Origin: an uncultured virus (IMG/VR IMGVR_UViG_3300029985_000693)
Lineage: Duplodnaviria; Heunggongvirae; Uroviricota; Caudoviricetes
Length of the DNA stretch: 63,960 nucleotides
Virus record (IMG/VR): IMGVR_UViG_3300029985_000693
Span: 62,001-125,960 of that record
Reading direction: 5' to 3' (one strand)
Below the pieces are notes generated by a model, which saw only the letters and a program-made list of their open reading frames with translations, was not told the DNA's origin and searched no databases. Positions 20,372 to 63,960 of the stretch are shown piece after piece. Position 1 is the first letter of the stretch, and every line of letters starts with the position of its first letter. The position numbers and the translations under genes are program-made.

Positions 20372-20441
20372 GACAATTCTTTAGTAACGGTACTTTTTGT
20401 TGTAAGTGCCCAAGGTTCCTACCGAAAAGTTACTTTTCTTC

Positions 20442-20470
20442 TTGACTTCTATTGAAAATACCGGTAATAT
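20442..20470 (+). promoter_or_regulatory. sigma70-type promoter, leaderless spacing
   Basis: TTGACT-N17-TAATAT-N7-ATG. Confidence 0.75.
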
Positions 20471-20477
20471 ACCTTAT

Positions 20478-21062
20478 ATGAACAACAAAAAGCCTTTACT
20501 GGTTAACTTTATAGGGGCTCCAGCCAGTGGTAAGACCACCGTAGCTGCCCTCACCTTCGGTGCTCTTAAGGAAGCTTCGGTACCCTGCGAACTGCTTACA
20601 GAGGTAGCGAGGAAACACATAGTTGGTCTTAAATATGTTAATAGGTGGAGCAATCCCCCCTGGAATGGTATTTTAACCGATAGAGACCAGAACGATATCT
20701 ACATTGGCGAACTCTACCAAACAGAACGCTACGTTACGGTTTGTTCCCCAGAAACTGTTATAATTAGTGATTCCAGTCCAATAAATGCTATTATTTATAA
20801 CCGTAGGTTGTCTAGTGACAAAATCATAATTAACGACTGGTTAGCTTACTGTAATCCCTTGTTCTTCTACTCCACCCCGGTACCTAATAATTTGGACACC
20901 TTGGACTCCAACCGAGTCCACTCTATCGAACAAATACACAATGCAGACCGGGAGATCCCCGGAATTATAGAAGAGTTAGGGTTGGAAGTTATTACCCTTA
21001 ATGGTAATTCCAACCAACGCCAACTTCAATGTCTTCATGCAATATATGACAGGTTGGCCTAA
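20478..21062 (+). CDS. P-loop ATPase/nucleotide kinase (NadR/AAA_28-like)
   Basis: GAPASGKTT, TEVAR, ISDS; start reassigned to ATG 20478. Confidence 0.8.
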   Translation: MNNKKPLLVNFIGAPASGKTTVAALTFGALKEASVPCELLTEVARKHIVGLKYVNRWSNPPWNGILTDRDQNDIYIGELYQTERYVTVCSPETVIISDSSPINAIIYNRRLSSDKIIINDWLAYCNPLFFYSTPVPNNLDTLDSNRVHSIEQIHNADREIPGIIEELGLEVITLNGNSNQRQLQCLHAIYDRLA

Positions 21063-21067
21063 ACCAG

Positions 21068-22546
21068 TTGTTATCAATAGTAGAACCCACCAGGGTTAAT
21101 ATAGATGAAAACGCTCCCATAGATGCCATTCGTAAGTATTTGGCATTTAAAGACATGGGTGTTTTATATCAAATAAAACAATTTAAAGCCAACAAGTGGT
21201 TATTGAAGAAAATAACCAACGAAGAGTGGAGTGAACGCCTACACTCCCTAGAGGCTCAAGTTGACCGTTCTGCTTTGTTTGAAGACTCGAATGGGTACTA
21301 CACCTATAGTGGTTTAGCTGAAGATTTATCCCAGCAGTTTGGGCTGCATTTAACCAATACAATTAAATACACCAAACCAACTCCGTTGTCTTGGACCCAT
21401 ACTCCTCCAGATTTAAGGTACTTTCAAGAGGATGTAGTTAAGTTGTTTCTACAGCACAAACACGCTGCGGTTAATCTTGCCGTAGGTATGGGGAAATCCT
21501 ACATAGCCCTACATATAGCCCAAAGGCTAGGATTGAAAACCGTTGTAATGGTACCCTTTTCAGCTATAGCAAACCAATTGTACGCTACGTTCACTAAACA
21601 TCTCGGTAAATATAGGGTGGGCATGTTTGGGGACGGTCGCAAGGACACCAGTAAACTCATAACCATAGCCGTGGCTCAATCGTTGGTTAGGGTCGAGGAG
21701 GGAACACCCGAATGGGACGACCTGCAAGGGGTCAAGGTGCTCGTTTCAGATGAGTCCCATATGAACCCAGCCTCAACCCTGGAGGGTGTCTGTATGGGGC
21801 TCCTACGCAACGCAGAGTACCGTTTTGCTTTGTCTGGTACTCAGCTGCGTAGCGATGGTAGCGAAATTGTCCTTAAGGGTCTAGTAGGGCCTATTGTTTA
21901 CAGTAAAAACATACAAGACGGAGTTAGAGAGGGTTTTCTAGCCAAACCCAAGTTTATTGTATATCGCTATAACAGCCAAGATCCCTATCGCTCTGCCGAT
22001 ACCAACAAGATGACCCAAAAACATTTATACTTAAATCCGGATATAAACACCCTGGTTGCCAATATAGTAAACATCAGTTCTGGCAAGATGGGTCAGTCCG
22101 TTTTGGTGTTAATTGATGAGTTTGGTCAATTTAATATGATTTACCCTCAATTTACATCAAATTTCAAATTTGCCCATGGGGGAGCCACCAAGGCCAACAA
22201 AAAACACATTCCTCCTGAATTCTGGAAATCAGAACCATTGGATTTAATTGAAGAATTTAACCAGTTAAAGTTTCCGGTAATGGTTGGAACCTCTTGTTGC
22301 TCAACCGGAGCTGACTTTAAGGTGCCCAAAACCGTTATTTACCTAAGAGGGGGAAAGTCTGAAATAGATTTCACCCAAAGTCTAGGTAGAGGAGTAAGGA
22401 AATTTGATAATGGTACTTATAAGAAGGACTCCTTCACCTTTATTGATTTTTGGTGTCGGAACGTACCAGCCTTGGATCGTCACGCTAAGGCCAGAATAGC
22501 TTATATGAAAGCTATTGGTGGGGATATAAAGATTATTGATATTTAA
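21068..22546 (+). CDS. superfamily 2 DNA helicase (UvsW-like)
   Basis: AVGMGKS, DESH, SGT, QSLGRGVR. Confidence 0.9.
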   Translation: MLSIVEPTRVNIDENAPIDAIRKYLAFKDMGVLYQIKQFKANKWLLKKITNEEWSERLHSLEAQVDRSALFEDSNGYYTYSGLAEDLSQQFGLHLTNTIKYTKPTPLSWTHTPPDLRYFQEDVVKLFLQHKHAAVNLAVGMGKSYIALHIAQRLGLKTVVMVPFSAIANQLYATFTKHLGKYRVGMFGDGRKDTSKLITIAVAQSLVRVEEGTPEWDDLQGVKVLVSDESHMNPASTLEGVCMGLLRNAEYRFALSGTQLRSDGSEIVLKGLVGPIVYSKNIQDGVREGFLAKPKFIVYRYNSQDPYRSADTNKMTQKHLYLNPDINTLVANIVNISSGKMGQSVLVLIDEFGQFNMIYPQFTSNFKFAHGGATKANKKHIPPEFWKSEPLDLIEEFNQLKFPVMVGTSCCSTGADFKVPKTVIYLRGGKSEIDFTQSLGRGVRKFDNGTYKKDSFTFIDFWCRNVPALDRHAKARIAYMKAIGGDIKIIDI

Positions 22547-22947: not shown

Positions 22948-25215
22948 ATGGCTTCATCTCAAGACCAGCATTTTGCTAACTTTCAAAAGATACTATCCTC
23001 CAAGATAGTTGCCTATGGAGAGCACCAAGGCTCTGAAAAGGACTTTATTAAGTCTCAAAAGAAGCAAGTTCTTAAGCTTTCAAAGCTGGAAGAGATGTTT
23101 CGTAAGGAACTATTACGAACTCCTCATGGTTTGCAGGTCTACATGGAATTTATCAACTTCATTAGGGATGACCGAAAGAATATATTAGATGCCAGACCTT
23201 ACTTTCGTATAAGACAAGACGTGTTCACCAAGAAGGTATCCCCAGCCTTACGAACCAGGGATCCAAAGAACATACAAAAGTGTCATTTTAACTTTACCTT
23301 TATTTCATTTGCCATGAAATATGTAGTGTTATCACCCAATGACCCATTAACAGATATTTACGAAGAACTTAAAGAAGTAAGGAATAAGCTAATAGAAGTG
23401 AACACACCTTTGGCAATAGCCAGAAGCAGCCAATTCTATCGTAAAACTAAAAGAAATCACTTAACCCGCATGGACCTAATCCAGGTGGCGTTGGAAGGTT
23501 TGACTGCTGGAATAGACAAGTTTTGCGGTATTTACGACAATACCAAATACCGTCATATGCTTATAGGCAGAATTACGGGCAATCTAATTGAGGCTTATTG
23601 TATTGACGAAAACACAATATTAAACCCAATAGGCCAGCCTCCAAAGAAGATTTCAGAGTTTATTCCTGGTGATAAGATTTTAGGAATTGATGATTCTGGG
23701 GCTATTATAGAAACAGAAGTTGTAGCATTACACGATCATGGCGTCGTGGACGGCTATGAGGTTGAATTTGCCGATGGGTATAAGATAATATGCTCAAAAA
23801 ATCACAAATTCCTTACAGAAGAAGGTCAAATCCCAATTCACGAAATAGTATCCAGAGGCTTGGGTGTGCTTTGTGAGCCCACCAATGAAAACTGGTGGTT
23901 GGACAACTCATTGCCAAATGGTTCTACCGTCCAAGAGAAAGATGTATGCTCACAAAAAAGTATGTCCAATCTGCAAAACACTGGTATACGAGACCCGGCG
24001 CTCGAATGGGCTGAAACTAACCTTACATCAAACTCTAACCGAAGGATGGAAAAGTCTGTGCGGTCAGACTTTTCGAACACGTCGATTGTTTTACAGTCAC
24101 AGAAAAAACTGTCAGGTTTGTCAAAAAGCCATATTGGAGGGACTTGTCGCAAGGGCCAAGAATTGGCGGAACAAGAACATGGAACGTGTTCTAGAGCACA
24201 TGCGGAATATTTCGATAGCATTTCAGGAGTCTTTACAAAAAAGACCAGACCTAAAATCGAAACACACAGAAAAGGTGAAACAAGCTTCCATGGAATGGAG
24301 GTCGAAGAATCCAGAGGAATTCATCCTCAACATGAAAAAAGCCTGGGCCGCTCAGAAACCATCCAAGATGGAAGCGTGGTTACGGTCAAGCGGAACTATA
24401 ACCTGGGACGATGTTCAAATCAGATGCGGAAAGGAAAGAAAGCAGGTGGACTTCGTTTCTCCGGATCACAAAATATGGGTAGAAGTGGATGGGAGCTTTC
24501 ACTTCAAAGAAGTATCGACGAAGCCGTTGAAGCAGAGATTGCCAAAGATTCAGCAACGGGATGCCATGTTGAAGACGGAGGCCCTATTGAGGAAAGATGT
24601 GACTTTGATCCGATTAGCGGCGGATTGTTTCTATGCGACTGGCATACTAAAAGAGCCTTGGAGGGTGTGGCTATCAAACATGCTCCTCTCACCTCGACCA
24701 GGGGTTTGGTGTTGCGGAAAGTTGTACGATTTAGCCCCATGGGCACAAGAAGGATGTACGATCTTGAGGTCGCCCACCCCAAACATAACTTCCTTTTGCC
24801 TAACGGAATAGTTACTAGCAATTCCGAAACAATGGTTCATTTTTACCCAACAGACAAGAGAAAACTGTATAATGCAAACAAAGTAATGAATAAATGTCGT
24901 ACAGAGGATTTTCAAGAAATATCTGCCAGGGTAAATGATTTAGCTAAAGAGCATTTATACACCACTACCCCAGAAGAAGTAACACATTTAGTGGCAGCTA
25001 GTAATCTAATTAATGCCGACTTCTCACCTCCCGCCCATTCCGGTGATAACCAAACCAAGACTATACAAGATACGATGCAGTATGCCGATGTACCGGAAAA
25101 ACAACCAGATATAGGTTATGAAGCACATGAATTGAGCGGCAAGTTAGCACAAGCAATACGCAAATTAACAGTATTTGAGCAAAAACTACTAAGACTCAAG
25201 GGAATGGAATTTTAA
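22948..25215 (+). CDS. phage sigma70-family sigma factor interrupted by an intein
   Basis: Region 2 LIEVNTPLA...DLIQVALEGLTAGIDKF; spliced product about 347 aa, ending early in region 4. Confidence 0.8.
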   Translation: MASSQDQHFANFQKILSSKIVAYGEHQGSEKDFIKSQKKQVLKLSKLEEMFRKELLRTPHGLQVYMEFINFIRDDRKNILDARPYFRIRQDVFTKKVSPALRTRDPKNIQKCHFNFTFISFAMKYVVLSPNDPLTDIYEELKEVRNKLIEVNTPLAIARSSQFYRKTKRNHLTRMDLIQVALEGLTAGIDKFCGIYDNTKYRHMLIGRITGNLIEAYCIDENTILNPIGQPPKKISEFIPGDKILGIDDSGAIIETEVVALHDHGVVDGYEVEFADGYKIICSKNHKFLTEEGQIPIHEIVSRGLGVLCEPTNENWWLDNSLPNGSTVQEKDVCSQKSMSNLQNTGIRDPALEWAETNLTSNSNRRMEKSVRSDFSNTSIVLQSQKKLSGLSKSHIGGTCRKGQELAEQEHGTCSRAHAEYFDSISGVFTKKTRPKIETHRKGETSFHGMEVEESRGIHPQHEKSLGRSETIQDGSVVTVKRNYNLGRCSNQMRKGKKAGGLRFSGSQNMGRSGWELSLQRSIDEAVEAEIAKDSATGCHVEDGGPIEERCDFDPISGGLFLCDWHTKRALEGVAIKHAPLTSTRGLVLRKVVRFSPMGTRRMYDLEVAHPKHNFLLPNGIVTSNSETMVHFYPTDKRKLYNANKVMNKCRTEDFQEISARVNDLAKEHLYTTTPEEVTHLVAASNLINADFSPPAHSGDNQTKTIQDTMQYADVPEKQPDIGYEAHELSGKLAQAIRKLTVFEQKLLRLKGMEF
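23599..24822 (+). mobile_element. intein (408 aa) in sigma factor
   Basis: CIDENTIL...PGDKILG; CSKNHKFLT block B; MYDLEV..HNF block F; ends GIVTSN before Ser+1. Confidence 0.9.
23864..24811 (+). CDS. Vsr/DUF559-like homing endonuclease nested in +1 frame inside the intein
   Basis: CPIC, CQVC zinc motifs; KHTEKVK NUMOD-like segment; QVDF..PDHKIWVEVDGSFH...RD...LIR nuclease core; exact start uncertain (23864/23885/23942). Confidence 0.8.
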   Translation: MCFVSPPMKTGGWTTHCQMVLPSKRKMYAHKKVCPICKTLVYETRRSNGLKLTLHQTLTEGWKSLCGQTFRTRRLFYSHRKNCQVCQKAILEGLVARAKNWRNKNMERVLEHMRNISIAFQESLQKRPDLKSKHTEKVKQASMEWRSKNPEEFILNMKKAWAAQKPSKMEAWLRSSGTITWDDVQIRCGKERKQVDFVSPDHKIWVEVDGSFHFKEVSTKPLKQRLPKIQQRDAMLKTEALLRKDVTLIRLAADCFYATGILKEPWRVWLSNMLLSPRPGVWCCGKLYDLAPWAQEGCTILRSPTPNITSFCLTE

Positions 25216-36992: not shown

Positions 36993-38957
36993 TCATATCG
37001 TTTTCTTCCACAACCATCGGTCTTTACCGCAATCCCAAATACGGTTTAGGCCCATGATCTGTGTTGCCTCCGTCTCAGTCATTCCGTCTGGACATCCGAT
37101 CTTTTCCTTGCGGTATTTACTTTTGTGCTTACGAAACGTGTCACTACCAGACTTGACATAAGAATAATCTGGTAGAGATGTATCTGTTAACACAAAATTT
37201 GCATTTTTATACATATTCCCTTGCGACCACCGTTTATCTGAAAAACTAACAATATCAGTTACATTGTTATTTTTAACAAAGTTAGACATCAATCGATCGA
37301 ATCCGCCTGTTACTGCATATCCTATTTTGACACAATATCTATTTAATTCCCAAAAACCCGGTACCGAATAACCCTTTCTTTCCGGAGAGGAGGGTGAAAA
37401 TGTCATGGCTGCTATAATCTCCCCATCCACCTCTAATACATATGGATTCCTGACGATATCTATTGATTGTATGTGATTTTCTTTGATAAATTCGGACACC
37501 TTGGCCGGATCTCCCGGTTTGACTATTCCATCTCTGGCACCAATACGCTTTATGTCTTTATGTTTTAATATGGCTTTAATATATCCTATAACTTGTTCTC
37601 TTTTTGTTAGCCACTCATCCGCAAATATGGTAATTAATCGTATACCTTTTGCTTCTGCTGACTTTAATTTATCTAAATGCCTATTCTTTGCATTCGGCTT
37701 GGCGTCGCTGTGCCAATATAGTCCGCAGTATTCAATTGCTACATTTTGTTCTGGTATGTAAATATCTAATTCTTTCCCATTGTCAAGAACACTTCTTGTC
37801 TTTTGAACATTATAACCTAAATCTTGTAGTAATTTTGCTATGTTACGCTCTTCTCTACTTTGTTCACAACCACAAGACTGTGCCCGTTCATAGGCTATTT
37901 CCCATAGCACAGCGGTAAACAAAGATCCACAAAAACACCTGAGTTCCACTCTTTCTGACATAGACGGAACGCGATCCGTATCTATGCGCTCCCCAACCAA
38001 AAGGAATTCTTTGTTTTTTGCTGACTGTCTGATGTCGCCCCAAGTGTATTTAGAGTCGCGCTGCATGTTGTTTTTGCGCGCTTCCTCGTCCAGTAGAATT
38101 TCACGTTTTACGCACTCCCTGGTTACGACTCCCTTGTCAATTCCAAAAAAGTCAGCAATTTCCTGACAGCTCTTTTTATCAACTAGTCGCATATTCGCTA
38201 TAGCATCTAGGGTTGTCCTAGAACACGGAAGAAATACATGATCTTTTTGACTTTGACTTAGAGTTATCCCCTGTGTAGATAGGGACCATTTTATTTGTCC
38301 TAAACTATAACCGGTTTCTTTGGATATTTCTGGTATAGTTAATGGTTTATTTGTATCTCGTAGCAATCTAATAGCAGTATTAATTTCTTCTCGATTATCG
38401 TCAACCAAAATAGCACTTAATTGAGTTTTGTCTAACAATACACCCTCGTTACGACAAATATATTCAACGGTATCTTCTGATTGACCAGTCAGCATCGCAA
38501 TTTCATAATATGAAGGAGTGTTTTTTTGTTTTCTGTAATCTGTTATAATTTTTCTAAGCTCATCAGAGTAAATTCTGCGAACTTCGCTCTGTCCTTGTTT
38601 GCTTAGATAAAATCCATTGTCGCTACAAATGGTACGCACCTTGTTTTCGTGTAATCCCAAAATGGTAGCGATTGATTTTTCAGAGCAATTGGAGTCTTTT
38701 AACTGCTTGATTTTGTTTATTGTTTCTTGTGAAACTGGTGTGTAATCGTGGGTAAGTCTTCCTTTGTGTATGTTTTCTCTGCGTGCTTCCTTGCTTAATT
38801 TAGCTCCATTTCTAGTAGATAGTTTATTTACCTGAGAAACAGTCAATCCAAGCGTAACGGCTATTTCTTTGGCTGTTTTTCCTTCTTTTTTTTGTCGTAT
38901 AATTTCTGATTTAATTTCTGGTGAAGCTCGATACCGTTGTCCTGTGCTCTGTGTCAT
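36993..38957 (-). CDS. Hef-like free-standing homing endonuclease with tandem HTH repeats
   Basis: About five HTH repeats, SCGC, ELDIYIPEQNVAIEYCGLYWHS, RLITIF.DEW, C-terminal GNAT-like region ending RIWDCG. Confidence 0.8.
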   Translation of the reverse strand: MTQSTGQRYRASPEIKSEIIRQKKEGKTAKEIAVTLGLTVSQVNKLSTRNGAKLSKEARRENIHKGRLTHDYTPVSQETINKIKQLKDSNCSEKSIATILGLHENKVRTICSDNGFYLSKQGQSEVRRIYSDELRKIITDYRKQKNTPSYYEIAMLTGQSEDTVEYICRNEGVLLDKTQLSAILVDDNREEINTAIRLLRDTNKPLTIPEISKETGYSLGQIKWSLSTQGITLSQSQKDHVFLPCSRTTLDAIANMRLVDKKSCQEIADFFGIDKGVVTRECVKREILLDEEARKNNMQRDSKYTWGDIRQSAKNKEFLLVGERIDTDRVPSMSERVELRCFCGSLFTAVLWEIAYERAQSCGCEQSREERNIAKLLQDLGYNVQKTRSVLDNGKELDIYIPEQNVAIEYCGLYWHSDAKPNAKNRHLDKLKSAEAKGIRLITIFADEWLTKREQVIGYIKAILKHKDIKRIGARDGIVKPGDPAKVSEFIKENHIQSIDIVRNPYVLEVDGEIIAAMTFSPSSPERKGYSVPGFWELNRYCVKIGYAVTGGFDRLMSNFVKNNNVTDIVSFSDKRWSQGNMYKNANFVLTDTSLPDYSYVKSGSDTFRKHKSKYRKEKIGCPDGMTETEATQIMGLNRIWDCGKDRWLWKKTI

Positions 38958-49400: not shown

Positions 49401-52400
49401 ATGAAAAGACTATACTTTTATTTACGCTTGTGTAGGCATAAACCTACATATCTTTCTTTGTTAGAGACAGATGCCAGTACCGCCTGGATCACATGTAAGG
49501 ATTGCTGTGACAATATAATTGGCTATTATAGGTTTGATTTTACAAATAGGTGCATCAAAAGGGTTAAAAGCTACTTACAAGGAAAGGGTGAAAAGTCAGG
49601 AGAATGAATAAAGTATTAATAATACAGCCCTGTAAGCACAATAAGTTGATAAACTATACAGACTCAGAAGTATATTGGGCTGCTATGGAATGTATAGCTT
49701 GTGATAGATACTACTTTTTCAACTTTTTAACCAGACAGCTTATTTTTGAAGAACCCAAAGGTGTTGGTTGGTATAGAGTAAGAAAATGATTAAAAATCCC
49801 ATTTATGTACGTCCATGTAAGCACAACACCTACTCTGGTGTAGGTTACTACATAATAGACAACCAATTAAGCTACGAGTGCGAACAATGCACTATGTTTT
49901 TTCAAAAGAAGGATCATAGAGTTGACCTTATATATTACGCTTTTACAGGAGAAAGAAAAATAAAACCAATAGTAAAATGGTGGAATGAAGGATATTTCAC
50001 TTACACTACATGGGAACAATTTTTGTCTTGCCATAATAGACTTCGGAATAAGTTGGAATATTATCTGTTTAAAATTTTGTACTTTTTGGCTAGATTCTTC
50101 TGGGTCATTATTGATAACGATTTTTTTTAGGATACCATCCTACCTAGACCTACATCATGATAAATACAATCAAAGAATTTAACATCTACTTCCGGTTCTG
50201 CAAACACATCTTTGGATATACTTGTTATTTGTCCAAAGAAAACTTCCTGTTTCAAGGTAAGAGTGAACCTATAATAAGAAGATGGGTGTTTTGTAATGAT
50301 TGCAAAAAATACTTTACCATTAATGAACGGCTTGTGATTCCCAACAGAATTACCAAAAAGTCTAACCTTCTAGATTCGGTACTGGGTTAAATGAGATCTT
50401 TCTACTATATACGTGTATGTAGGTCGTGCGTATATTCCAATAATGTATTTGACTATTTTTGCTGTATACATTGCAAACTGGATCATGTAATTAGGGATAG
50501 AATTGTTGAAAATATTGAATGTGGAGTCTGGATATGAAAAACACCCTTGTGTATTCTATTGGTACCACATGAAAACCCATCCCTATTACCGTCCTTGCCC
50601 ACATGTACATACATACGACTCTGGTAAATACGGAAAGTTCTTTTCCAACCCATTAAGTGAATGTATGTATTGCAATCTGAGTCTAATAGCTAACGATAGG
50701 GCTGTTTATACTATAGATTTGTACTCCGATGATTACGATGATTTCGAAGAAGATGGTTCCATATTGTGAAATATAAATTACCCTATTACAGACCTTGCAA
50801 ACACTCCCAAGGAATAATGAAGTCTTGCTCAACCTGCTCAGTCTACTTGTTGGATAGAGTTTGTCATAAAATAGTCAACTTTTCTAATTGGACCGGAATG
50901 GGACCGCTTAATTCGGGCAAATAATATGAAAAACGTACTATTTGTAAGACCATGTAGGCATTTGTACGATACAGATAATTACGCTTCTTGGGAAGGTATG
51001 GGGTGTTCTGATTGTAGAATAAGGTATTATTTCGATTATACAAACCGATACCTTTCCTTCCGTAAATACAGAATAATACTCCGGAATACCAAATGAAATA
51101 CAACTTTTACACTAGATACTGCCCTCACTATTTCAATGCATACGAAGATGAAGATGAATACGATTTATTGGCACTAATATGCTGTGGTTATTGCGGAGTA
51201 CTCCACTACCAATTTAAACTCTCCAGCCGAACCCTGATCGTATCCAAATGCGATTATTTGGGCGATGAATGATATTTTGGGATTTTGATAGAGACAAATG
51301 AATAATATAATATCTAAATACTATAAGTCCTTCCCTTACGTAAGATTTTTGGGTCACTATGCCCGACTCTTAACCTCAATACTGGCCTAAACCCCTGGAT
51401 TAAGCCTTGCTATGTATAACAAAACCAACCTACCCTATTACCGTCCTTGCCCCCATACATATACCTATGATACGATTAGATATAATAAGTTCTGTTTAAA
51501 TCCCTTAAGAGATTGTACGTATTGCTCCACCTCCCTAACTGTTAACGAAAGGAATGTTGAAGCCATGGAACTATACAACAAATACTACTACGAAGAGGAT
51601 GAAATTGAAATACAATTTACCTTATGTAAGACAATGTAGGCATCTATACGATCCAATTCTGTTCTACCTATACGAAGTAGGTGCGTCGTGCCGTGATTGT
51701 CGAATCGTATACTTTTTCAACGATACAACCCGACAACAGGATAGCCGTAAATACCTACCTATACCCAAAAACCAATGAAATATACTTTTTATACCAGATA
51801 TTGCCCTCATTCCTATAATGCCCCTAAAGATGTCCATATATGCGATTTATTGGAAATGTATTGTTGCACCCCTTGCGGGGAATCCCATTTCCTATTTAGA
51901 CTCACCGACCGAACCTTAATTACTACCAAATGTGATTTTTACAACCAAGAGGAAACAAACCGTATCCCTATCCCCGACCTCTTACAGTTTTTAAACACAC
52001 CTTAATACCCTCTGAAAACCCAATGTATAAACTATCCCCATACTATAAATACAAACCCTACGTAAGGTTTTGCGGCCACCCCTCGATCTGCTTTTGGGAT
52101 TCTTACTCCCACTTGTGCCTTATATGCCAAACACAAACAAGGTTTGATACAATTACCAGGGAAATAAGTTTTATAGAAAAATTATAATAAGGATCCTCCT
52201 TGAAACCAACCAAATCCCCCTTGTCCCAAAATTCCCCATACCGTCGCCCCTGCAAACACCTTTTCGTTGCCCTTAAATTACAAATCGAATTATGGCTACA
52301 AACAAACAATACTACCGTAGACGCTCTTTGTATGGTGAAAATGGAAGAACACCCGACCTTTCTTTTTTAGATATAAAATTTTTATAAAAAAAATTGGATT

Positions 52401-52430
52401 TAACTTAAAGGGACTACAGAGTAAATACCC
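49401..52430 (+). other. tandem array of about 15 small paralogous CxH/CxxC ORFs
   Basis: ORFs at 49401, 49604, 49786, 50157, 50391, 50569, 50766, 50926, 51093, 51298, 51412, 51599, 51775, 52023, 52200; most share [YF]x[R]xCxH...CxxC. Confidence 0.8.
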
Positions 52431-52432
52431 CT

Positions 52433-52527
52433 GGTAACGGTTCCTTGGTAATGGTTCCTTGGTAATGGTTCTTAACGTAACGGTTCCTTGGTAACGGTTC
52501 CTTGGTAACGGTTCCTTGGTAACGGTT
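52433..52527. repeat. 14-bp tandem repeat GGTAACGGTTCCTT, about 7 copies
   Basis: Direct reading; two copies have GGTAATGG, one is irregular. Confidence 0.95.
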
Positions 52528-52885
52528 TTATTAGGGGAAAATTATCTTAAAAATTCCAGGTGTAATACGTAAAGTCCCCCCAAACCCCAAAACCCCCTAT
52601 CCTACCCAGGGGAACCTCCCCGGATAGTATCACCTATACCCCCCCCCGTGATTACCCTGTAAGGAATAACCCCTAAGACTAAGGTCCAGGATCCTTGGCA
52701 AGGATCTTGCTTGGTAAACCCGGTATGTTTATTGCATAGGGGAACCGGCATGGTTATTGCTAGTGGTAGCGTGGCAACGATATTGCAAGGATCCTAATGG
52801 TATGGTTATTGCATAGGGATTTCGTTGCTTGCAAGCCTTATGCCATATCATTAGCAATGGTTTCCCGGCTATGGTCCCTTTGGAT

Positions 52886-52901
52886 TGTTCCACGTGGAAC
52901 A
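52886..52901. promoter_or_regulatory. parS: parS site
   Basis: TGTTCCACGTGGAACA inside a perfect 24-bp palindrome (52882-52905). Confidence 0.85.
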
Positions 52902-52996
52902 ATCCTGCGCGTGCGCATGTGTGTGTATGTGGATGTGAGTGTATGCCCACATCTATATATGGTGTGTCGTACCCAAGACCTAGGTCTCAAGCTTTC

Positions 52997-53039
52997 TGGG
53001 GATAACCTGTTAGTAAGCTGTTAGTAAGCCTGTGGATAA
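52997..53039. promoter_or_regulatory. DnaA-box array
   Basis: TGGGGATAA, TGTTAGTAA, TGTTAGTAA, perfect TGTGGATAA at 11-12 bp period. Confidence 0.7.
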
Positions 53040-53785
53040 CTTTTGGCACGGATCTTGTCTAGGCGTTTTCAGCGTCTGGACGGGATAGAGCCTAGGGATC
53101 CTCGGGCCGCGCTAGGAAGGGCGGATCCGCTCGTTTAATTGGCATTTAGCGCAAAGCGTCATTTAATCCGACTTTAGTCTTATTTTTGAGACCCTAAGCA
53201 AGATCCTTGCCAAAGAGTCTAAGCTATGTCGGCACGTTTGTTGCTACGCGCGCGGGCGCTTGATCCTTTGGTAAGGGATTAGAATTTCCCCTACGGGGAG
53301 AAACCGTTCGTTTGAGACGACGACGCATTGCGTCAAGAGTTTTACGTTAGGGGAATTCGAGGATTCCTCTAGCGGTCTAACCCCTTGAATTCCTTACTGT
53401 ACAGTTTCACTACAGACTATGACAACCTTGTCCTAGTGACTTTTCTCAATGGTTTCATACAGTTAACCCTTTTTAGACCTTAGTCCTATGATCCAAGCGT
53501 CTCGATCCTGTCTGTTTTGCTGTACCATTTGGATCGTTTCCCCTACGGGGAGAGATCGTTCGATCCCATTGTAATCATTACACTTTTTTCCCCGCCCTGT
53601 TTTGGCGTAACGCTTGGCATGGCCGCTGCATAATAGGCCATTATCTCAGTTTGGTTCGCTCCTCTCTCTCTCCGAGGCGTTTCCCCTCTCCCCGCTGTTT
53701 CCCTCTACAGAAAAAGGATTGACGGCCCCCTTCTTCTCTGGTACAACCTTCCCCGCTGTTTCCCTCTACGAAAAGGATCCTCCCC

Positions 53786-54997
53786 ATGATCTCCACCGAT
53801 ACCGATATTGATTTCGCTGGCCTCACTCCCACCGAGACGCCGATCGCCTCGGATCCGGCCCCCATGGCCGATCTGGATCTCATTGAGTACGTTTCCCCTT
53901 CCGATCCGCACGTGATCATTCCCGAGATCGTCTCCACGCCTAACACCGTCTTGGATCACTCGGTCGGTTTCGGTCGCGTCGATGGCGATGAGCGCGCCGC
54001 GCTGGACACTGGAACCGTCCAGTTCGTGAGTTCGACCACCACGTCAACGGATCTGGCGGGAAACAGCACGGCCAGCGTTCAAACGATGGGTATGGTCGCA
54101 GGGGGCGCGCGCGAGATCCTGGCCAAGGCGGATCTGGCCTTTACCGTCGAAAGCGCGCCGATCTACACGTTGCGCGGAGGTCTTCCCGTCCAGATCGAAG
54201 GCAAAAAGGCGCTTGTCCGCACCGATACCGAGGAACCGGTCGGACTGGCAGGCGATGGGCGCGGGATCATTCAGTACGGGGAATGGGGCGAGGTGGTGGA
54301 TATGCTGATCGAACGCGCGAATGGCGAATTGTCGTTTGCTAACGCGATCAAACTGGACAACGGCGGGGCCATGGTTATGCAGATGGCCCGCAAGGGGAGC
54401 GTGGGGCGCTATGACGTTAAGGACATGATCACGTTGATCACGTCCCACAACGGTCGTTTCGCTGCCACGTTGGGATTTTCCCGCACCATGGTCGTTTGCG
54501 ATAACACGCTCGCGCATGCTCTCCACGAGGCAAAAAACGGGATCAAACTGAAGCACACCCGCCACGTTGCAGAGCGGTTCTCGCTCATTGCGGATGCACT
54601 CGAGATGTCGAAGGCGTATGCGGGCGCGCTGGATAATCACACGCTCCGGATGATGGGCCAAAAGATGACCGATGATCAGATGGTGCGGCTTGCGTCGAAA
54701 CTGATCCCTTCCGATAGCGCCCGCGCGGAGGGTATGCGTGAAAAGCTGATCAGTGCGTGGACTACCGCGCCCGGAGCGGCTCCGGGGACGCGCTGGGGCG
54801 GATTGCAAGCGGTTACGTACTACACCTCCCACCTCATGGGATCGCGTGACACTGGACGCGCAGCGCAAGCCGCGAAATTTGAATCGCAATACATGGGAGC
54901 CGCGCAAAAGTTTTCGCAGAGCGGTTTTGACGTTCTGACGGACGATCGGGAATTCGAGGGACTGGCCAACGTGCAGATCGTCCGTCGCGCTCTATAG
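53786..54997 (+). CDS. DUF932-family phage/plasmid protein
   Basis: ALVRTDT, IIQY, TSHNG, VVCDNTL, LKHT, GTRWG..QAVT.Y. Confidence 0.8.
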   Translation: MISTDTDIDFAGLTPTETPIASDPAPMADLDLIEYVSPSDPHVIIPEIVSTPNTVLDHSVGFGRVDGDERAALDTGTVQFVSSTTTSTDLAGNSTASVQTMGMVAGGAREILAKADLAFTVESAPIYTLRGGLPVQIEGKKALVRTDTEEPVGLAGDGRGIIQYGEWGEVVDMLIERANGELSFANAIKLDNGGAMVMQMARKGSVGRYDVKDMITLITSHNGRFAATLGFSRTMVVCDNTLAHALHEAKNGIKLKHTRHVAERFSLIADALEMSKAYAGALDNHTLRMMGQKMTDDQMVRLASKLIPSDSARAEGMREKLISAWTTAPGAAPGTRWGGLQAVTYYTSHLMGSRDTGRAAQAAKFESQYMGAAQKFSQSGFDVLTDDREFEGLANVQIVRRAL

Positions 54998-55407: not shown

Positions 55408-55590
55408 CCCATAAACAGGCGCTTAAACACGCTCGCGGCGGGATCCTCCCGATACTGCGCGTGTGTGTACAGGATATCGGCCGCATCCCATAACGGTTAA
55501 AGGCTGTTGGGGTAGGTTAGGAGGATCCTCTTTTAACCTACCTTGTAGAGCTTTCAACCTTCCCCTTTTAACCCATAAAGGAAAAACCCC

Positions 55591-55719
55591 ATGCCTACCA
55601 CCAACGGCCACATTAACAATCTGCGAGAGGCGACCGATCTGGATCGTGAAACCGCTACGTCCCACACTGCCTATTGGGATTGTTACGGATTGATTCCTCG
55701 TGCAAAACCTACCTTGTAG
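55591..55719 (+). CDS. small hypothetical protein (42 aa)
   Basis: Same leader and MPTT start as 56283. Confidence 0.45.
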   Translation: MPTTNGHINNLREATDLDRETATSHTAYWDCYGLIPRAKPTL

Positions 55720-55763: not shown

Positions 55764-56198
55764 ATGGCAAACATTGGCGAGACAGACAGAAACGGATTCA
55801 CGACAGTGCACGTAGAGGAGAGCGACGGCGTGTGGTATGATCTGGCGATCTCTCTGGACGAAGAGAGCGAGATTGATGGATCGTTCAGTGATAGCAGCGT
55901 TGCGGACTATGTGCGCGAACAGATTGCAGCAGGAAACCCATGGGCATGGTGCGTTGCCCGCGTCACCGCGCGAGCAGGCGAGGGGCGTGGAGTCGATTAC
56001 CTCGGATCCTGCAGCTATAGGGATACTTCCGAGTTCGTTCAGCCCGGTGGTTATTTCGACGATATGAAGCGGACGGCCCGGGCGGATCTCGTCTCGGAAC
56101 TCAAACTCTCGGTAGATGTTGGCAACGCAGCGCGCGCCACGCTTGCGAAACTGTCAGGCAACCCGGATCCCATCTACACGCTGCACGATAACGGTTAA
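55764..56198 (+). CDS. hypothetical protein, paralog of 58482-58871
   Basis: AAGGAG SD; WAWC..VTA...D.LG.CS...Y..DMK shared. Confidence 0.7.
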   Translation: MANIGETDRNGFTTVHVEESDGVWYDLAISLDEESEIDGSFSDSSVADYVREQIAAGNPWAWCVARVTARAGEGRGVDYLGSCSYRDTSEFVQPGGYFDDMKRTARADLVSELKLSVDVGNAARATLAKLSGNPDPIYTLHDNG

Positions 56199-56282
56199 AG
56201 GCTGTTGGGGTAGGTTAGGAGGATCCTCTTTTAACCTACCTTGTAGAGCTTTCAACCTTTTACCCCATAAAGGAAAAACCCC

Positions 56283-56678
56283 ATGCCTACCACTACCAAA
56301 AGGATCACACCAATGAAACCCAATTTTGAGATCATCGATCACGGCTGTGAACACGGCCAGTATTTCCAGGGGTGCGGCGTCTCTTTTACTCCCTTTTTGC
56401 ATGTTGTCACCGGGGTAGCAGATACCCCGGCCGATGCACTCGAGGATGCTATCTCTAGTCTGTACGATCAGGCGGAACGGCCGGACGATGAAGCATTGAC
56501 CGCGATCGAGGCGGAAGCGGCCGTCTTGATTGCTAACGCGCCTGCTACCGCACACAAGAATTGCCACGAAGATTGCCGTCAATATTTTGACGGTACTGAT
56601 GAACAGTTTGAACGCTCGCACGAAATGTGCGAAATTGCCTATCGGGTATCAATCCGCTTTGGACGAAAGGAAGGCTAA
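56283..56678 (+). CDS. hypothetical acidic protein
   Basis: AAAGGA SD. Confidence 0.65.
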   Translation: MPTTTKRITPMKPNFEIIDHGCEHGQYFQGCGVSFTPFLHVVTGVADTPADALEDAISSLYDQAERPDDEALTAIEAEAAVLIANAPATAHKNCHEDCRQYFDGTDEQFERSHEMCEIAYRVSIRFGRKEG

Positions 56679-59372: not shown

Positions 59373-59864
59373 ATGAGCGACTCCGAAGCATTGGCAACCT
59401 TGAAGCGATATCTGCGCGGCGCGAACCTGAACGGTGCGGACCTGTGCGACGCGAACCTGCGCAACGCGAACCTGCGCGACGCGAACCTGAGCGGTGCGGA
59501 CCTGTGCGGTGCGAACCTGAGCGGTGCGAACCTGCGCGACGCGAACCTGAGCGACGCGGACCTGAGCGGTGCGAACCTGTGCGACGCGGACCTGAGCGGT
59601 GCGGACCTGAGCGGTGCGAACCTGAGCGGTGCGAACCTGAGCGACGCGAACCTGTGCGGTGCGGACCTGAGCGGTGCGGCCCTGTGCGGCGCGGACCTGA
59701 GCAACGCGGCGGACCTGAGCATCGCGGACCTGAGCGGTGCGAACCTGAGCGGTGCGGACCTGAGCGACGCGCACCTGAGCGGTGCGGCCCTGCGCAACGC
59801 GGACCTGAGCGGCGCGTATTTTTACAACCACGGAACTCTCTACAAGGTCGCCTCGGCGATCTAA
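59373..59864 (+). CDS. pentapeptide-repeat protein
   Basis: A(N/D)LxG/D repeats, 15-nt DNA periodicity. Confidence 0.9.
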
Positions 59865-61476: not shown

Positions 61477-62183
61477 ATGAAAACCTACACGCAAAAAGAA
61501 CTTTCCGAAACCCTCCGTTTGCATAAACTCTGGTTAGAAGGTAAGACCGAAGGTGTACAGGCCGATCTGTACGATGCCGATCTGTCCGGGGCCGATCTGT
61601 CCGGGGCCAATTTGACCGGGGCTAATTTGACCGGGGCCAATCTGTCCGGGGCTAATTTGACCGGGGCCAATCTGTCCGGGGCTATTCTGACCGGGGCCGA
61701 CCTGACCGGGGCCAATCTGACCGGGGCCGACCTGACCGGGGCCAATCTGGAAGGGGCCAAATTGACCGGGGCCAATCTGTCCAGGGCCAATCTGTCCAAG
61801 GCCAATCTGTCCAAGGCCGATCTTACCGGGGCCAATCTGAGCGGGGCCAACGGTTTCCCAGAAGAGGAAATTGCCAAGCGTCAAATTGTACCGAAGGAAG
61901 GGGAGTTTATTGGTTACAAAAAGCTTGGAAACGGTACGGTGGCGAAGCTTTTGATTCCGGCCGGGGCCAAGCGCATCGGGGGATGACCGATCGCAAGTGT
62001 CGGGCTGAGTTCGCAACGGTACTGGAAGGATCCGGCTTTTCCCGGTATGATTCTTCTTTTGAGTACCGTTGCGGGGAAACCGTTTATCCAACTACTGAAA
62101 ATCCCTTCAACCCAGATCCTTTGGTGAAATGTTCTGGGGGGATCCATTTTTTTCTTACCCCAGAAGAAGCCGAAGCTTATTAA
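61477..62183 (+). pseudogene. pentapeptide-repeat + DUF5758-like protein split by frameshift in a G5 run (ORFs 61477-61986 and 61983-62183)
   Basis: [17 protein letters not shown] / RKCRAE...SRYD..F.Y...C..GIHFF.T.EEA. Confidence 0.7.
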
Positions 62184-62345: not shown

Positions 62346-63071
62346 TTGGACTCTACTCTGTTTAAGCCTATCCATAAGCTTCGCAACACTTACCGACCCA
62401 TTGCTAAGGAACTAGAAAAGGATATCATCCTTAAGGCTCAAGCAGGGGACAAGAAGTCTCGTGATTTACTGGTAAACAGTAATATGGGACTGGTCATTAA
62501 GGAAGCCCGCAAACAGGCTGGTAGGAAACTGGATATTAATGATTTGGTACAGGTTGGAGCAATGGCCCTATTGGAAACCATTGATAAGTTTGATACCAGT
62601 AAGGATTTGAAGTTTATTACCTACGCCAAGTGGCTGGTGGTAAGCCGTATGCAACGATACCGGGCGGCTCAAAGCGGTATTGTTCATTACGATACCGATA
62701 AAACCCGGCAAGAAGGATATGGGGCTAAAAGGTCGGATCAAAGCCTAAATGAGATTTATTCCAATAGCAAAAAGAATGACATTGAAGGTGATGTGGAGTA
62801 CCAAGACCTTTTAGTGTGTGATGAACCCACCCCAGAAGATAACGCTATTCGCTCTCAAACAAATGGAGAGGTAGCCCTATTTATGGATAATCTTCAAAAG
62901 ACCCTTACCCCTATGGAGAAAGAGTTTATTCCCCGTATTGGTGAAAAAGAGAAGAACAGGGTTCCGCTTCATGAAATCGGTAAAAAGTATGGGTATTGCC
63001 GGGAATCGGTACGACAAAAAGAGGCTAAACTGGTAGCTTGTTTGGCAAATGACCTTAAGGAATACGCATAA
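62346..63071 (+). CDS. sigma70-family RNA polymerase sigma factor
   Basis: LVNSNMGLV, DLVQVG..AL...IDKFD, KFITYA.W, region 4.2 LHEIGKKYG.CRESVRQ.E. Confidence 0.9.
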   Translation: MDSTLFKPIHKLRNTYRPIAKELEKDIILKAQAGDKKSRDLLVNSNMGLVIKEARKQAGRKLDINDLVQVGAMALLETIDKFDTSKDLKFITYAKWLVVSRMQRYRAAQSGIVHYDTDKTRQEGYGAKRSDQSLNEIYSNSKKNDIEGDVEYQDLLVCDEPTPEDNAIRSQTNGEVALFMDNLQKTLTPMEKEFIPRIGEKEKNRVPLHEIGKKYGYCRESVRQKEAKLVACLANDLKEYA

Positions 63072-63157: not shown

Positions 63158-63186
63158 TTGACACCTCGAAATGTTCGTGCTACATT
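63158..63186 (+). promoter_or_regulatory. sigma70-type promoter
   Basis: TTGACA-N17-TACATT with TG extension. Confidence 0.7.
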
Positions 63187-63209
63187 GGCAAGACAATGGA
63201 GGGGACGCA

Positions 63210-63575
63210 ATGGACATTTTGATTTTGGATGATGAAGATGTTAGACACTCTGAGTTCGCCAAGCGTTTTCGGGAGCATAACGTATTCCATACCAAGGATC
63301 CTTGGGAAGCTGTTTGCTGGATGAAGGAACGTAAGTTCGATTTGGTTTCTTTAGACCATGACCTTAACTGGTTCGAGTTTACACCCTACAAGCAGGAGAT
63401 CACTGGTACTGAGGTTGCACGTGCGATGCTTGCCCTTCCTGGCGAAAATAGGCCCGGTGAAATTCATATCCACAGTTGGAATCCAGATGGAGCGCGGCGG
63501 ATGTTTCTGATTTTGAAAGAGGCCGGGTTTGTTCATATCATCCGCAACCCTTTTACTGCAATTAAATCCATTTAG
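63210..63575 (+). CDS. cyclic-phosphate-processing receiver-domain protein
   Basis: [25 protein letters not shown]. Confidence 0.8.
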
Positions 63576-63597
63576 CCCCATAAAAAGGACAATTCCC

Positions 63598-63960
63598 ATG
63601 AAAACCTACACGCAAAAAGAACTTTCCGAAACCCTCCGTTTGCATAAGCTTTGGTTAGAAGGTAAGGCTGGAGGTGTACTGGCCAATCTGTACGGGGCTA
63701 TTCTGTCCGGGGCCAATCTGTCCGAGGCTATTCTGTCCGGGGCCGAACTGATCAGGGCCAAATTGACCGGGGCCAATCTGTCCGGGGCCGAACTGATCAG
63801 GGCCAATCTGTCCGGGGCCGAACTGATCAGGGCCAATCTGACCGGGGCCAAATTGACCGGGGCCAATCTGTCCGGGGCCAATCTGTCCGGGGCCAATCTG
63901 TCCGGGGCCGATCTGTACGGGGCCACACTGACCTGGGCCACACTGACCTGGGCCAAATTG
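63598..63960 (+). CDS. pentapeptide-repeat protein (runs off window edge)
   Basis: [23 protein letters not shown] identical to 61477 N-terminus, then AxLxG repeats. Confidence 0.9.

What the first reader, a model, noticed from the sequence alone, without database searches (positions are those of the whole stretch)
52680..53640. About 1 kb non-coding array of host DNA-binding sites: ~9 sigma54 motifs, a parS and a phased DnaA-box cluster
Seen: GG-N10-GC sigma54 motifs at 52696, 52721, 52746, 52772 and 52798 (about 25-bp period), 52830(-), 53197(-, exact inverted copy of 52696), 53230 and 53615, plus a near match at 53044. Also TGTTCCACGTGGAACA in a 24-bp palindrome, four DnaA-box-like 9-mers at 11-12 bp period (one perfect), an IHF-like TAACCCCTTGAAT (53378) and a twice-repeated palindrome TCCCCTACGGGGA (near 53287 and 53539). 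Established: these match the RpoN -24/-12, ParB parS and DnaA consensus sites, and sigma54 holoenzyme binds tightly without opening until activated. Inference: only 53615 is placed to drive a gene, so the rest may be a chromosome-mimic or decoy module. It could titrate sigma54-RNAP, load host ParB/SMC to position the phage DNA and recruit or sequester DnaA, probably on the first-injected DNA. No ParB or enhancer-binding protein is seen in this window.
Basis: partly seen in the sequence, partly recalled or inferred. Interest (0 to 1): 0.88.

Follow-up and report, generated by a model that had tools for sequence, protein, structure and literature searches.

The report
Sigma-54 docking array with parS in phage
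A 1.8-kb gene-free stretch of an uncultured Mx1-like phage is packed with near-perfect docking sites for the host's sigma-54 RNA polymerase plus one perfect chromosome-partition (parS) site, and similar sigma-54 site arrays turn up in many unrelated phage contigs although I found no paper describing them.

Summary
The core observation holds. Nine sites match the sigma-54 -24/-12 consensus at 10 or more of 12 positions within 52696-53630. Shuffles give 0.13, and the other 125 kb of the record holds 16. The parS palindrome is perfect and unique in the record. The "phased DnaA cluster" is weak (one perfect box, one with a single mismatch), and the IHF site fails the strict consensus.

The join to the GC-rich right-hand DNA is not a chimera: a separate 162-kb metagenome contig is 99.99% identical across it.

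The phage is a distant relative of Myxococcus phage Mx1. It encodes no sigma-54, no sigma-54 activator and no ParB in the 126 kb held.

Similar arrays occur elsewhere. They have variable spacers, a 27-28 bp period and often a C-rich tract upstream. I found them in at least 79 viral contigs but in only 5 loci from 185,579 bacterial species genomes. This scan noted the class before on other DNA (e1-3274260, e1-3273539).

Best reading: a bank of docked, poised host sigma-54 polymerase at the head of an accessory-gene island, with host ParB loading beside it. A pure decoy remains possible. Function is untested.

The parts
52364..52395 (.). AT-rich tract at the left edge of the gene-free region
   Evidence: GC is 0.29 in 52300-52399.
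52432..52527 (+). 14-bp tandem repeat TGGTAACGGTTCCT, 6.8 copies. The reader protein is unknown. GC content begins to rise here, and the run contigs break here.
   Evidence: score 148; D1/D2; contig pieces end at 52506 and start at 52498.
52560..52680 (+). C-rich, G-poor tract (47 C and 17 G in 121 nt), including CCCCCCAAACCCCAAAACCC. It lies upstream of the same-direction sigma-54 array.
   Evidence: Comparable C-tracts lie upstream of the sites in 17 of 21 arrays in other contigs that have such a tract.
52696..52813 (+). Five tandem sigma-54 -24/-12 elements on the + strand, starting at 52696, 52721, 52746, 52772 and 52798 (spacing 25-26 bp).
   Evidence: Non-motif positions are only 0.28 identical between the window's sites.
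52830..52845 (-). Sigma-54 element on the minus strand, facing the tandem array.
   Evidence: 10 of 12.
52882..52905 (.). Perfect 24-bp palindrome holding a chromosomal-type parS, TGTTCCACGTGGAACA (52886-52901).
   Evidence: I6; the only match in 125,960 bp.
52906..52931 (.). 26-nt run of strictly alternating purine and pyrimidine (capable of forming Z-DNA).
   Evidence: Enrichment near other arrays is weak: 9 of 50 against 6.8% of control windows.
52997..53039 (-). DnaA-box pair (52997 with one mismatch, 53031 perfect) flanking an 11-bp tandem repeat.
   Evidence: Weak on its own.
53044..53059 (+). Sigma-54-like element with GT in place of the -12 GC.
53197..53245 (.). Back-to-back sigma-54 elements: 53197-53212 (-), an inverted copy of the 52696 site, and 53230-53245 (+).
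   Evidence: Inverted repeats 52674-52712 / 53170-53216 (I1, I4).
53285..53562 (.). Two copies of TTTCCCCTACGGGGAGA (53285-53310 and 53537-53562). These palindromes are candidate activator or regulator sites upstream of the last sigma-54 element.
   Evidence: D5, 92%.
53615..53630 (+). Sigma-54 element 156 bp upstream of the DUF932 start codon. It is the only site placed like an ordinary promoter.
53689..53774 (+). Two 25-nt direct repeats flanking a sigma-70-like promoter (TTGACG at 53719, 17-nt spacer, TACAAC at 53742).
   Evidence: (D6). The tool's own promoter scan did not list it.
53786..54997 (+). DUF932 gene, the first gene of the GC-rich, GATC-rich block.
   Evidence: PF06067, 1.1e-24; phrog_1221.

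Best explanation
The 1.8-kb gene-free region (about 52005-53785) is a docking hub for host DNA-binding machinery. It sits at the head of a GC-rich accessory-gene block in an Mx1-like phage.

Its main component is a bank of at least nine sigma-54 (-24/-12) elements. Host sigma-54 RNA polymerase would bind these as stable, closed, silent complexes. Eight of the ten elements face the DUF932 operon. Five of them are packed 25-26 bp apart, about 2.5 helical turns, so neighbouring polymerases would sit on roughly opposite faces of the DNA.

The phage encodes no sigma-54 and no activator ATPase in the DNA held. Firing would therefore depend on a host activator. Until fired, the bank simply holds sigma-54 polymerase, so titration is at least a by-product.

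The single perfect parS would load host ParB beside the bank.

Shown: the motifs, their statistics, their polarity, the missing readers, and the recurrence of the array type in other phages. Inferred: binding, firing, and any effect on the host.
For: - Motif density. 9 sites at 10 or more of 12 positions in 961 bp, against 0.13 in shuffles and 16 in the other 125 kb.
- Not simple duplication. Between the window's sites, identity is 0.78 at motif positions and 0.28 elsewhere.
- Pooled sites match positions I did not select on. In 267 sites from 39 arrays in other contigs, T or C precedes TGG in 77% and a purine follows CACG in 74%. Both agree with the extended sigma-54 consensus as I recall it.
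- Shared spacing. Same-strand neighbour spacing peaks at 27-28 bp.
- The array type is viral. The same pattern found 28 loci in 185,579 species genomes, 5 of them motif-only.
4 of those 5 bacterial genomes encode the sigma-54 DNA-binding domain.
- Polarity. A C-tract lies on the upstream side in 17 of 21 arrays that have such a tract. The downstream ORF runs in the same direction in 9 of 11 cases that could be judged (my reading).
- No phage-encoded reader. The activator domain is absent from 38 of 38 array-bearing records and from this one. The sigma-54 DNA-binding domain is absent from 39 of 39.
- parS is perfect and unique, and no ParB is encoded.
- The region is real phage DNA.
- Sigma-54 holoenzyme binds promoters in an inactive state regardless of conditions, and E. 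coli has 135 mapped sites (PMC4591121, abstract and passages read).
Against: - There are no expression or binding data, and the host is unknown.
- 36 kb of this genome could not be read and might encode an activator or a ParB.
- Tandem promoters 25-28 bp apart have no known precedent, and their footprints may overlap.
- Two sites face the other way, and many arrays in other phages interleave both orientations.
- The tandem array lies about 970 bp from the first gene.
- Relatives lack any cluster, so the feature is dispensable: Mx1 (20 sites against 21 in the control), G001/G002, and four cultured Vibrio phages related to the array-bearing record G034.
- A sigma-70-like promoter lies closer to the DUF932 gene.
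- The downstream-ORF count is small, and I read it by eye.
Confidence: 0.4

Rival explanations
1. Dedicated decoy. The arrays are never meant to fire. They soak up sigma-54 polymerase, and here also ParB and perhaps DnaA, so that host sigma-54-dependent stress or defence programmes cannot be switched on.
For: - No activator is encoded in any of 38 array-bearing records.
- Packing is dense, orientations are often interleaved, and the arrays lie in gene-poor stretches of several kb holding up to 27-28 sites per genome.
- Distribution among related phages is sporadic, as for accessory features.
- At 9-28 sites per genome copy, replicated phage DNA would outnumber the 135 mapped E. coli sites (PMC4591121, passages read). 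The phage copy number is my assumption.
- Perfect DnaA boxes are enriched near arrays: 20 in 292,108 bp, against about 2.2 expected by my calculation.
Against: - An orientation-free sponge does not predict the polarity seen: upstream C-tract in 17 of 21, and arrays facing same-direction genes in 9 of 11.
- One parS and one or two DnaA boxes would titrate little.
- No sigma-54-dependent defence is known for this unknown host.
- No DnaA boxes or parS lie near the arrays in nine near-complete array-bearing genomes.
Confidence: 0.2
2. Replication and partition hub that mimics a chromosome origin region. DnaA boxes, an AT-rich tract and iteron-like repeats form an origin, parS gives host-driven segregation in a carrier or plasmid-like state, and the promoters activate the origin.
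For: - A perfect parS, a DnaA box pair, an AT-rich tract and 14-bp repeats lie within 700 bp.
- Clusters of perfect DnaA boxes with 11-bp spacing adjoin sigma-54 arrays in some other contigs, for example six in L039.
- A near-minimum of cumulative GC skew falls here with 2-kb steps.
Against: - The DnaA signal in this window is weak.
- With 500-bp steps the skew minimum lies elsewhere.
- The phage has its own replisome and shows no sign of lysogeny or plasmid genes.
- An origin should be conserved, yet relatives lack the region.
- C-tracts lie upstream of the promoters, so they are not transcribed into G-rich RNA as an R-loop origin would need.
Confidence: 0.15
3. The TGGCA-N6-TTGC elements are sites for an unidentified phage DNA-binding protein, such as an initiator, a terminase small subunit or a regulator. 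Their likeness to sigma-54 promoters is coincidental.
For: - Some arrays lie beside terminase-small-subunit or lysis genes, or at contig ends, where packaging sites are expected.
- One motif-only array lies in a MAG without a detectable sigma-54 DNA-binding domain (L162).
Against: - The same extended consensus appears in phages of very different gene content and GC (0.31-0.59).
- The only protein family shared by 8 of 9 near-complete array-bearing genomes is family-A DNA polymerase, by blastp at 1e-4.
- Positions I did not select on follow the sigma-54 consensus.
Confidence: 0.1
4. Entry-control region like the T5 injection stop signal. Host proteins bind the incoming DNA at the inner edge of a first-entering segment.
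For: - It is a large untranslated region full of repeats, inverted repeats and palindromes, next to a block of small accessory genes.
- T5-like phages have such a region with 8 DnaA boxes (Davison, bioRxiv 10.1101/866236, abstract read).
- An earlier scan note reports parS plus sigma-54 elements at that position in marine T5-like phages (e1-6037305, not checked here).
Against: - The genome ends are unknown.
- Depth shows no doubling of the block.
- The phage is Mx1-like, not T5-like.
- Only one perfect DnaA box is present.
Confidence: 0.07
5. Assembly chimera or captured host chromosome piece.
For: - GC jumps from about 0.40 to about 0.51-0.60.
- GATC goes from an observed/expected ratio of 0.74 to 2.4-3.6.
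- Run contigs break inside the 14-bp repeat at the boundary.
Against: - A separate 162,435-bp contig is 99.99% identical over 20,175 bp across the junction, and its GC falls back to about 0.41 beyond the window end.
- Depth is similar on both sides in four runs.
- The genes on the right are phage-type.
- The breaks in the run contigs are what a 96-bp tandem repeat would produce.
Confidence: 0.03

Closest known systems
Bacterial sigma-54 (RpoN) -24/-12 promoters, such as glnAp2 and pspA
   Same: Same core (GG and GC ten bases apart within TGGCAC-N5-TTGC) and same extended preferences. Holoenzyme binding without firing is an established property (PMC4591121, passages read).
   Different: Known promoters are single and have an activator site about 100 bp upstream. 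Here 5-9 elements (up to 23 in other contigs) are stacked 25-28 bp apart in gene-free DNA, in both orientations, in phages that encode no activator.
Injection stop signal region of phage T5 and relatives (Davison, bioRxiv 10.1101/866236)
   Same: A large untranslated region rich in repeats, inverted repeats and palindromes, carrying host-factor (DnaA) boxes, beside host-takeover genes (abstract read).
   Different: T5 has 8 ordered DnaA boxes inside a terminal repeat. Here there is one perfect box, the dominant motif is sigma-54, a parS is present, the phage is Mx1-like, and no terminal repeat is shown.
Chromosomal parS/ParB centromeres near oriC
   Same: The 16-bp palindrome is identical to the common chromosomal variant (recalled). 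One site is known to suffice for ParB loading (established knowledge).
   Different: It lies on a large phage that is probably virulent and has no parAB genes in the 126 kb held. No other array-bearing locus examined has a parS.
Tandem early promoters A1-A3 at the leading end of phage T7 (recalled)
   Same: Several same-direction host-polymerase promoters sit ahead of the early genes.
   Different: The T7 promoters are sigma-70 type, about 125 bp apart, and fire without an activator.
E. coli datA locus, a DnaA-titrating site cluster (recalled)
   Same: A non-coding cluster of binding sites whose job is to hold a host protein.
   Different: It is chromosomal, binds DnaA only, and has been shown experimentally. 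Titration here is conjecture.

Membership tests
Sigma-54 (-24/-12) promoter | GG and GC dinucleotides ten bases apart within TGGCAC-N5-TTGCW | tested here: met
   9 sites at 10 or more of 12 positions. Eight of these have both GG and GC; 53044 has GT.
Sigma-54 (-24/-12) promoter | Density above chance | tested here: met
   9 observed against 0.13 mean and 2 maximum in 1000 shuffles.
Sigma-54 (-24/-12) promoter | An activator ATPase (bEBP) is available, with binding sites upstream | tested here: inconclusive
   No PF00158 domain in the record in six frames. The host is unknown. Palindromes at 53285 and 53537 are candidate sites only.
Sigma-54 (-24/-12) promoter | The host encodes RpoN | not testable with these tools
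   Host not identified (one search found nothing). Kinship to Mx1 points to Myxococcota, which have RpoN (recalled).
Sigma-54 (-24/-12) promoter | A transcript starts about 12 bp downstream of the GC | not testable with these tools
   No RNA run was available.
Chromosomal parS | 16-bp palindrome TGTTNCACGTGNAACA | tested here: met
   Perfect match at 52886-52901, unique in the record.
Chromosomal parS | A cognate ParB is present | tested here: not met
   None in the phage record. It would have to be the host's, or lie in the unread 36 kb.
DnaA-box cluster / oriC-like origin | Several consensus boxes in phase beside an unwinding element | tested here: inconclusive
   One perfect box and one with a single mismatch, 2 against 0.4 expected. 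The AT-rich tract lies 600 bp away.
T5-type injection stop region | Eight ordered DnaA boxes in the untranslated part of a terminal repeat | tested here: not met
   Only one perfect box. No depth doubling.
Phage sigma-54 site arrays (the class seen here and in scan notes e1-3274260 and e1-3273539) | At least 4 motif-only sites, 25-30 bp same-strand spacing, gene-free setting, C-rich tract upstream | tested here: met
   The window has 8 strict sites, non-motif identity 0.28, spacing 25-26 bp, and a C-rich tract at 52560-52680 (13 C in 20 nt, just under the 14 used).

The most novel reading that the evidence does not exclude
Many phages carry protein-free DNA sponges: phased arrays of sigma-54 docking sites, joined here by a host parS and DnaA boxes. 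These would capture the host's scarce sigma-54 polymerase on replicating phage DNA. That would shut down the sigma-54-dependent stress, envelope and defence programmes without any phage protein.
Probability: 0.2. Interest if true: 0.9.

Novelty: new variant of a known kind. Interest (0 to 1): 0.78.

Why it matters
Sigma-54 polymerase is the one bacterial holoenzyme that sits on DNA silently until an ATPase fires it.

Dense, phased arrays of its docking sites recur in at least 79 viral contigs, yet they are almost absent from 185,579 bacterial species genomes. That distribution suggests phages exploit this property in a way I found no paper describing (searches, listings only). They might use it as a private, signal-gated promoter bank, or as a DNA decoy.

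This window adds two things:
- A host-type parS and a DnaA box sit in the same hub, linking it to the puzzling host-factor region of T5-like phages.
- The hub lies in an Mx1-like phage, a relative of a phage whose host can be grown in the laboratory.

The idea can be tested directly with a cloned 200-bp fragment and purified holoenzyme.

Tried and rejected
- DNA and protein look-ups of the region and its flanks found nothing in the phages collection or viral contigs.
- Rfam gave no match.
- The tool's sigma-70 promoter and terminator scans were at or below shuffle level.
- No RNA holder was listed among the 24 runs, so expression could not be examined.
- Host identification through a host-like GMP-reductase gene found nothing.
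- The rest of the 162-kb contig could not be reached. The record is not held, and a 35-mer from beyond the window end has no match in viral contigs. The missing 36 kb stays unread.
- Terminal-repeat idea: depth is not doubled over the block.
- R-loop origin idea: rejected, because the C-tracts lie upstream of the promoters.
- Z-DNA tract as a shared feature: only weakly enriched.
- A shared phage-encoded activator: all-against-all blastp of ten genomes found only DNA polymerase A in common. blastp is insensitive, so a small shared protein could be missed.
- Cultured relatives with arrays: none found.
- Most three-site hits in bacteria that lack sigma-54 (Actinomycetota, Cyanobacteria, Chloroflexi) are plain tandem repeats with identical units, not motif arrays.
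- DUF932 literature gave no function (listing only).
- One paper search failed on a term that was too short and was re-sent.
Full report
WHAT THE DNA IS

The window is the last 63,960 bases of a 125,960-bp linear IMG/VR virus record, rated 78% complete. Its genes include a Pol III alpha polymerase, ribonucleotide reductase, an SbcCD-like nuclease, GroEL, terminase, portal and major capsid protein.

The capsid protein is 54.8% identical to that of Myxococcus phage Mx1. 46 ORFs match Mx1 in broadly conserved gene order. Mx1 is 169,621 bp with 55.5% GC, against 68.8% for its host (PMC10720576, main text read).

The capsid loci of four IMG/VR relatives have GC of 0.57-0.65. This phage is the low-GC member at 0.46 for that locus and about 0.40 overall. 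The DNA comes from peat metagenomes: 24 runs hold part of it. The host is unknown.

THE SETTING

Rightward genes end near 52005, and the next convincing gene, DUF932, starts at 53786.

At about 52.4-52.6 kb GC rises from roughly 0.40 to 0.5-0.65. The GATC observed/expected ratio goes from 0.74 in the low-GC part to 3.6 in the array core and 2.4 in the following 10 kb.

The GC-rich block encodes the following:
- DUF932;
- three pentapeptide-repeat proteins;
- a sigma-70-family factor;
- a cREC_REC domain protein;
- PHROG families of unknown function.
None of its ORFs matches Mx1 at E of 1e-5 or better.

IS THE JUNCTION REAL?

Yes.
- A separately assembled 162,435-bp metagenome contig is 99.99% identical over 20,175 bp spanning the junction, with 2 mismatches.
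- In that contig GC falls back to about 0.41 some 400 bp beyond the window end. The GC-rich block is therefore an island inside phage DNA.
- In four runs, contig pieces cover both sides at similar depth. They break only inside the 96-bp tandem repeat at 52432-52527, as de Bruijn contigs do at repeats.
- Depth over the block is not doubled, so a collapsed terminal repeat is not indicated.

THE OBSERVATION

I scored the record against TGGCACG-N4-TTGCW, a consensus recalled from memory.
- The record has 25 sites at 10 or more of 12 positions, and 9 of them lie within 52696-53630.
- Shuffles of the region give a mean of 0.13 and a maximum of 2.
- A tenth site, at 52721, scores 9 by my own count.
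- The sites are not copies of one another. Identity between them is 0.78 at motif positions and 0.28 elsewhere.
- Eight sites face right and two face left.
- Five form a tandem run at 25-26 bp spacing. The site at 52830(-) faces that run. Sites 52696(+) and 53197(-) are inverted copies that bracket parS and the DnaA boxes.

The parS is perfect, unique in the record, and sits in a 24-bp palindrome.

The DnaA part is weak: one perfect box and one with a single mismatch, against 0.4 expected. The strict IHF consensus is not met. GG-N10-GC alone is near chance, 13 against 7.8.

Other elements in the region:
- a 14-bp repeat in 6.8 copies;
- a C-rich tract at 52560-52680;
- a 26-nt alternating purine-pyrimidine run;
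- two TTTCCCCTACGGGGAGA palindromes;
- two 25-nt repeats flanking a sigma-70-like promoter just before DUF932.
Rfam finds nothing.

WHO READS THE SITES?

The 126 kb encodes none of the following, either in ORFs of 70 aa or more or in six-frame searches:
- sigma-54;
- a sigma-54 activator ATPase;
- ParB or ParA;
- DnaA or a Rep protein.
About 36 kb of the genome could not be read.

IS IT CONSERVED IN RELATIVES?

No.
- Mx1 has 20 sites at up to 2 mismatches against 21 for the reversed-pattern control, with no cluster and no parS.
- Two larger IMG/VR relatives (130 kb and 75 kb) show no cluster and no parS. Both are incomplete.

THE WIDER CLASS

- 50 of the 125 hold 4 or more strict sites. The highest counts are 23 sites in 1 kb, then 12, then 10.
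- With full flanks required, 49 loci have 4 or more sites. In 39 of these, non-motif identity is below 0.45, so they are motif arrays and not duplications.

I pooled 267 distinct sites from those 39 loci.
- T or C precedes TGG in 77%.
- A purine follows CACG in 74%. Both positions were not used in selection, and both agree with the extended sigma-54 consensus as I recall it.
- Same-strand neighbour spacing peaks at 27-28 bp.
- Opposite-strand offsets peak at 21 and 26 bp.

A stricter three-site pattern compares viruses with bacteria.
- It gave 28 loci in 185,579 bacterial and archaeal species genomes, 5 of them motif-only: Sphingobacteriales, a deltaproteobacterium, Gemmatimonadota, Polaromonas, and a 2.8-Mb MAG labelled Saccharibacteria.
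- Four of those five genomes encode the sigma-54 DNA-binding domain.
- Of the other 23 bacterial loci, 6 are plain tandem repeats, 5 are intermediate and 12 had fewer than 3 scored sites. The hits in groups that lack sigma-54, as I recall, are plain tandem repeats with identical units.

In nine near-complete array-bearing records, sites at up to 1 mismatch number 2-28 per genome. The control gives 0-3. The sites concentrate in one gene-poor region.

None of 38 array-bearing records has the activator domain. None of 39 (those 38 plus this record) has the sigma-54 DNA-binding domain.

The only protein family shared by 8 of the 9 near-complete genomes is family-A DNA polymerase.

Four cultured Vibrio phages whose polymerase is 46-49% identical to that of the array-bearing record G034 have 0-1 sites each. 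The arrays are therefore sporadic, accessory features.

GRAMMAR OF THE ARRAYS

- A tract with 14 or more C (or G) in 20 nt lies within 250 bp of 21 of 50 arrays, against 4.9% of control windows.
- In 17 of those 21 it lies on the upstream side relative to site orientation. The window follows the same layout, with a slightly weaker tract.
- Among same-direction arrays with a downstream ORF that could be judged, the ORF runs the same way in 8 of 10 other loci, and in 9 of 11 once this window is counted (my reading).
- Perfect DnaA boxes are enriched around arrays: 20 in 292,108 bp against about 2.2 expected by my calculation. They lie in 10 loci, and L039 has six at 11/19-bp spacing directly beside its array.
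- The nine near-complete genomes have no DnaA boxes near their arrays and no parS.
- parS was found in no other array locus.

INTERPRETATION

The match extends to positions I did not select on. It is the same in phages of unrelated gene content and GC. The few bacterial genomes with such arrays mostly carry rpoN.

Sigma-54 holoenzyme binds promoters in an inactive state whatever the conditions (PMC4591121, abstract and passages read). The arrays should therefore hold polymerase.

Whether they fire is open.
- For firing: the polarity (upstream C-tract, orientation toward same-direction genes) and the ordinarily placed site at 53615 favour a promoter bank fired by a host activator.
- Against firing: the missing activator, the tight packing, the interleaved orientations in many arrays, the gene-poor setting and the sporadic distribution favour a trap or decoy.

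I rank a poised bank of docked polymerase, with titration as a by-product, first at 0.4. The dedicated decoy comes second at 0.2. A spacing of about 2.5 helical turns would put neighbours on opposite faces of the DNA, which could allow dense occupancy. That point is inference.

The parS most simply loads host ParB. What that achieves is unknown.

An origin or partition hub (0.15) is weakened by three things: non-conservation in relatives, the weak DnaA signal in this window, and the phage's own replisome.

A T5-like entry-control region (0.07) is an analogy only (Davison preprint, abstract read).

PRIOR WORK

Four paper searches (listings read) and one on phage parS (listing) showed no description of sigma-54 site arrays in phages, nor of a natural host-type parS on a lytic phage. 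Papers outside the held library could not be checked.

Earlier notes of this scan describe the same class on other DNA (e1-3274260, e1-3273539) and a host-type parS beside sigma-54 elements in marine T5-like phages (e1-6037305). I read the first two only after my own scans. The third led me to the Davison preprint.

Noticed in passing
window 52600-64400 (GC-rich block): A 10-12 kb island inside a 40%-GC phage. Its GC is 0.5-0.65, GATC is 2.4 times over-represented, and CTAG is depleted to 0.36. The DUF932 gene repeatedly uses GAT followed by C. No Dam-type methylase appeared in the Pfam scans.
   Followed up: partly
window 59373-59864, 61477-61986, 63529-63960 and beyond: Three pentapeptide-repeat proteins built from 15-bp tandem repeats, one with a DUF5758 tail. 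Beside them are a sigma-70-family factor (62346-63071) and a cREC_REC receiver-like protein (63171-63575).
   Followed up: partly
window 55490-55601 and 56188-56293: A direct repeat of about 110 bp (93.8% identical, 698 bp apart) inside the island. Run contigs break at both copies.
   Followed up: no
window 51249-51280: Three of four runs have contigs that diverge from the window to the left of 51249 (loose ends). This points to strain variants in the small-gene region.
   Followed up: no
window 9838-12780, window 22948-25215, G000:56524-58599: Intein or Hint/LAGLIDADG insertions in the ribonucleotide reductase, in the 755-aa protein whose N-terminus matches Mx1's putative sigma factor, and in the primase-like gene.
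   Followed up: no
G000 37821-37841 compared with Mx1 80.2-121.4 kb: Mx1's 40-kb block of small leftward genes is absent at the matching place in this phage. The non-homologous small genes at window 47-64 kb, and the unread 36 kb, may be its counterpart.
   Followed up: partly
L039 1410-1489; L096 1299-1395: Other viral contigs have clusters of perfect DnaA boxes (TTATCCACAGG units at 11-bp spacing) directly between a C-rich tract and a sigma-54 array.
   Followed up: partly
L171 (G038 1-18000), L170 (G034 14500-21500): Two large phages (147.5 and 93.9 kb) have gene-poor regions of several kb strewn with sigma-54 consensus sites. At up to 1 mismatch they have 28 and 21 sites genome-wide. At 10 or more of 12 positions, 58 and 20 were listed in these two stretches.
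   Followed up: partly
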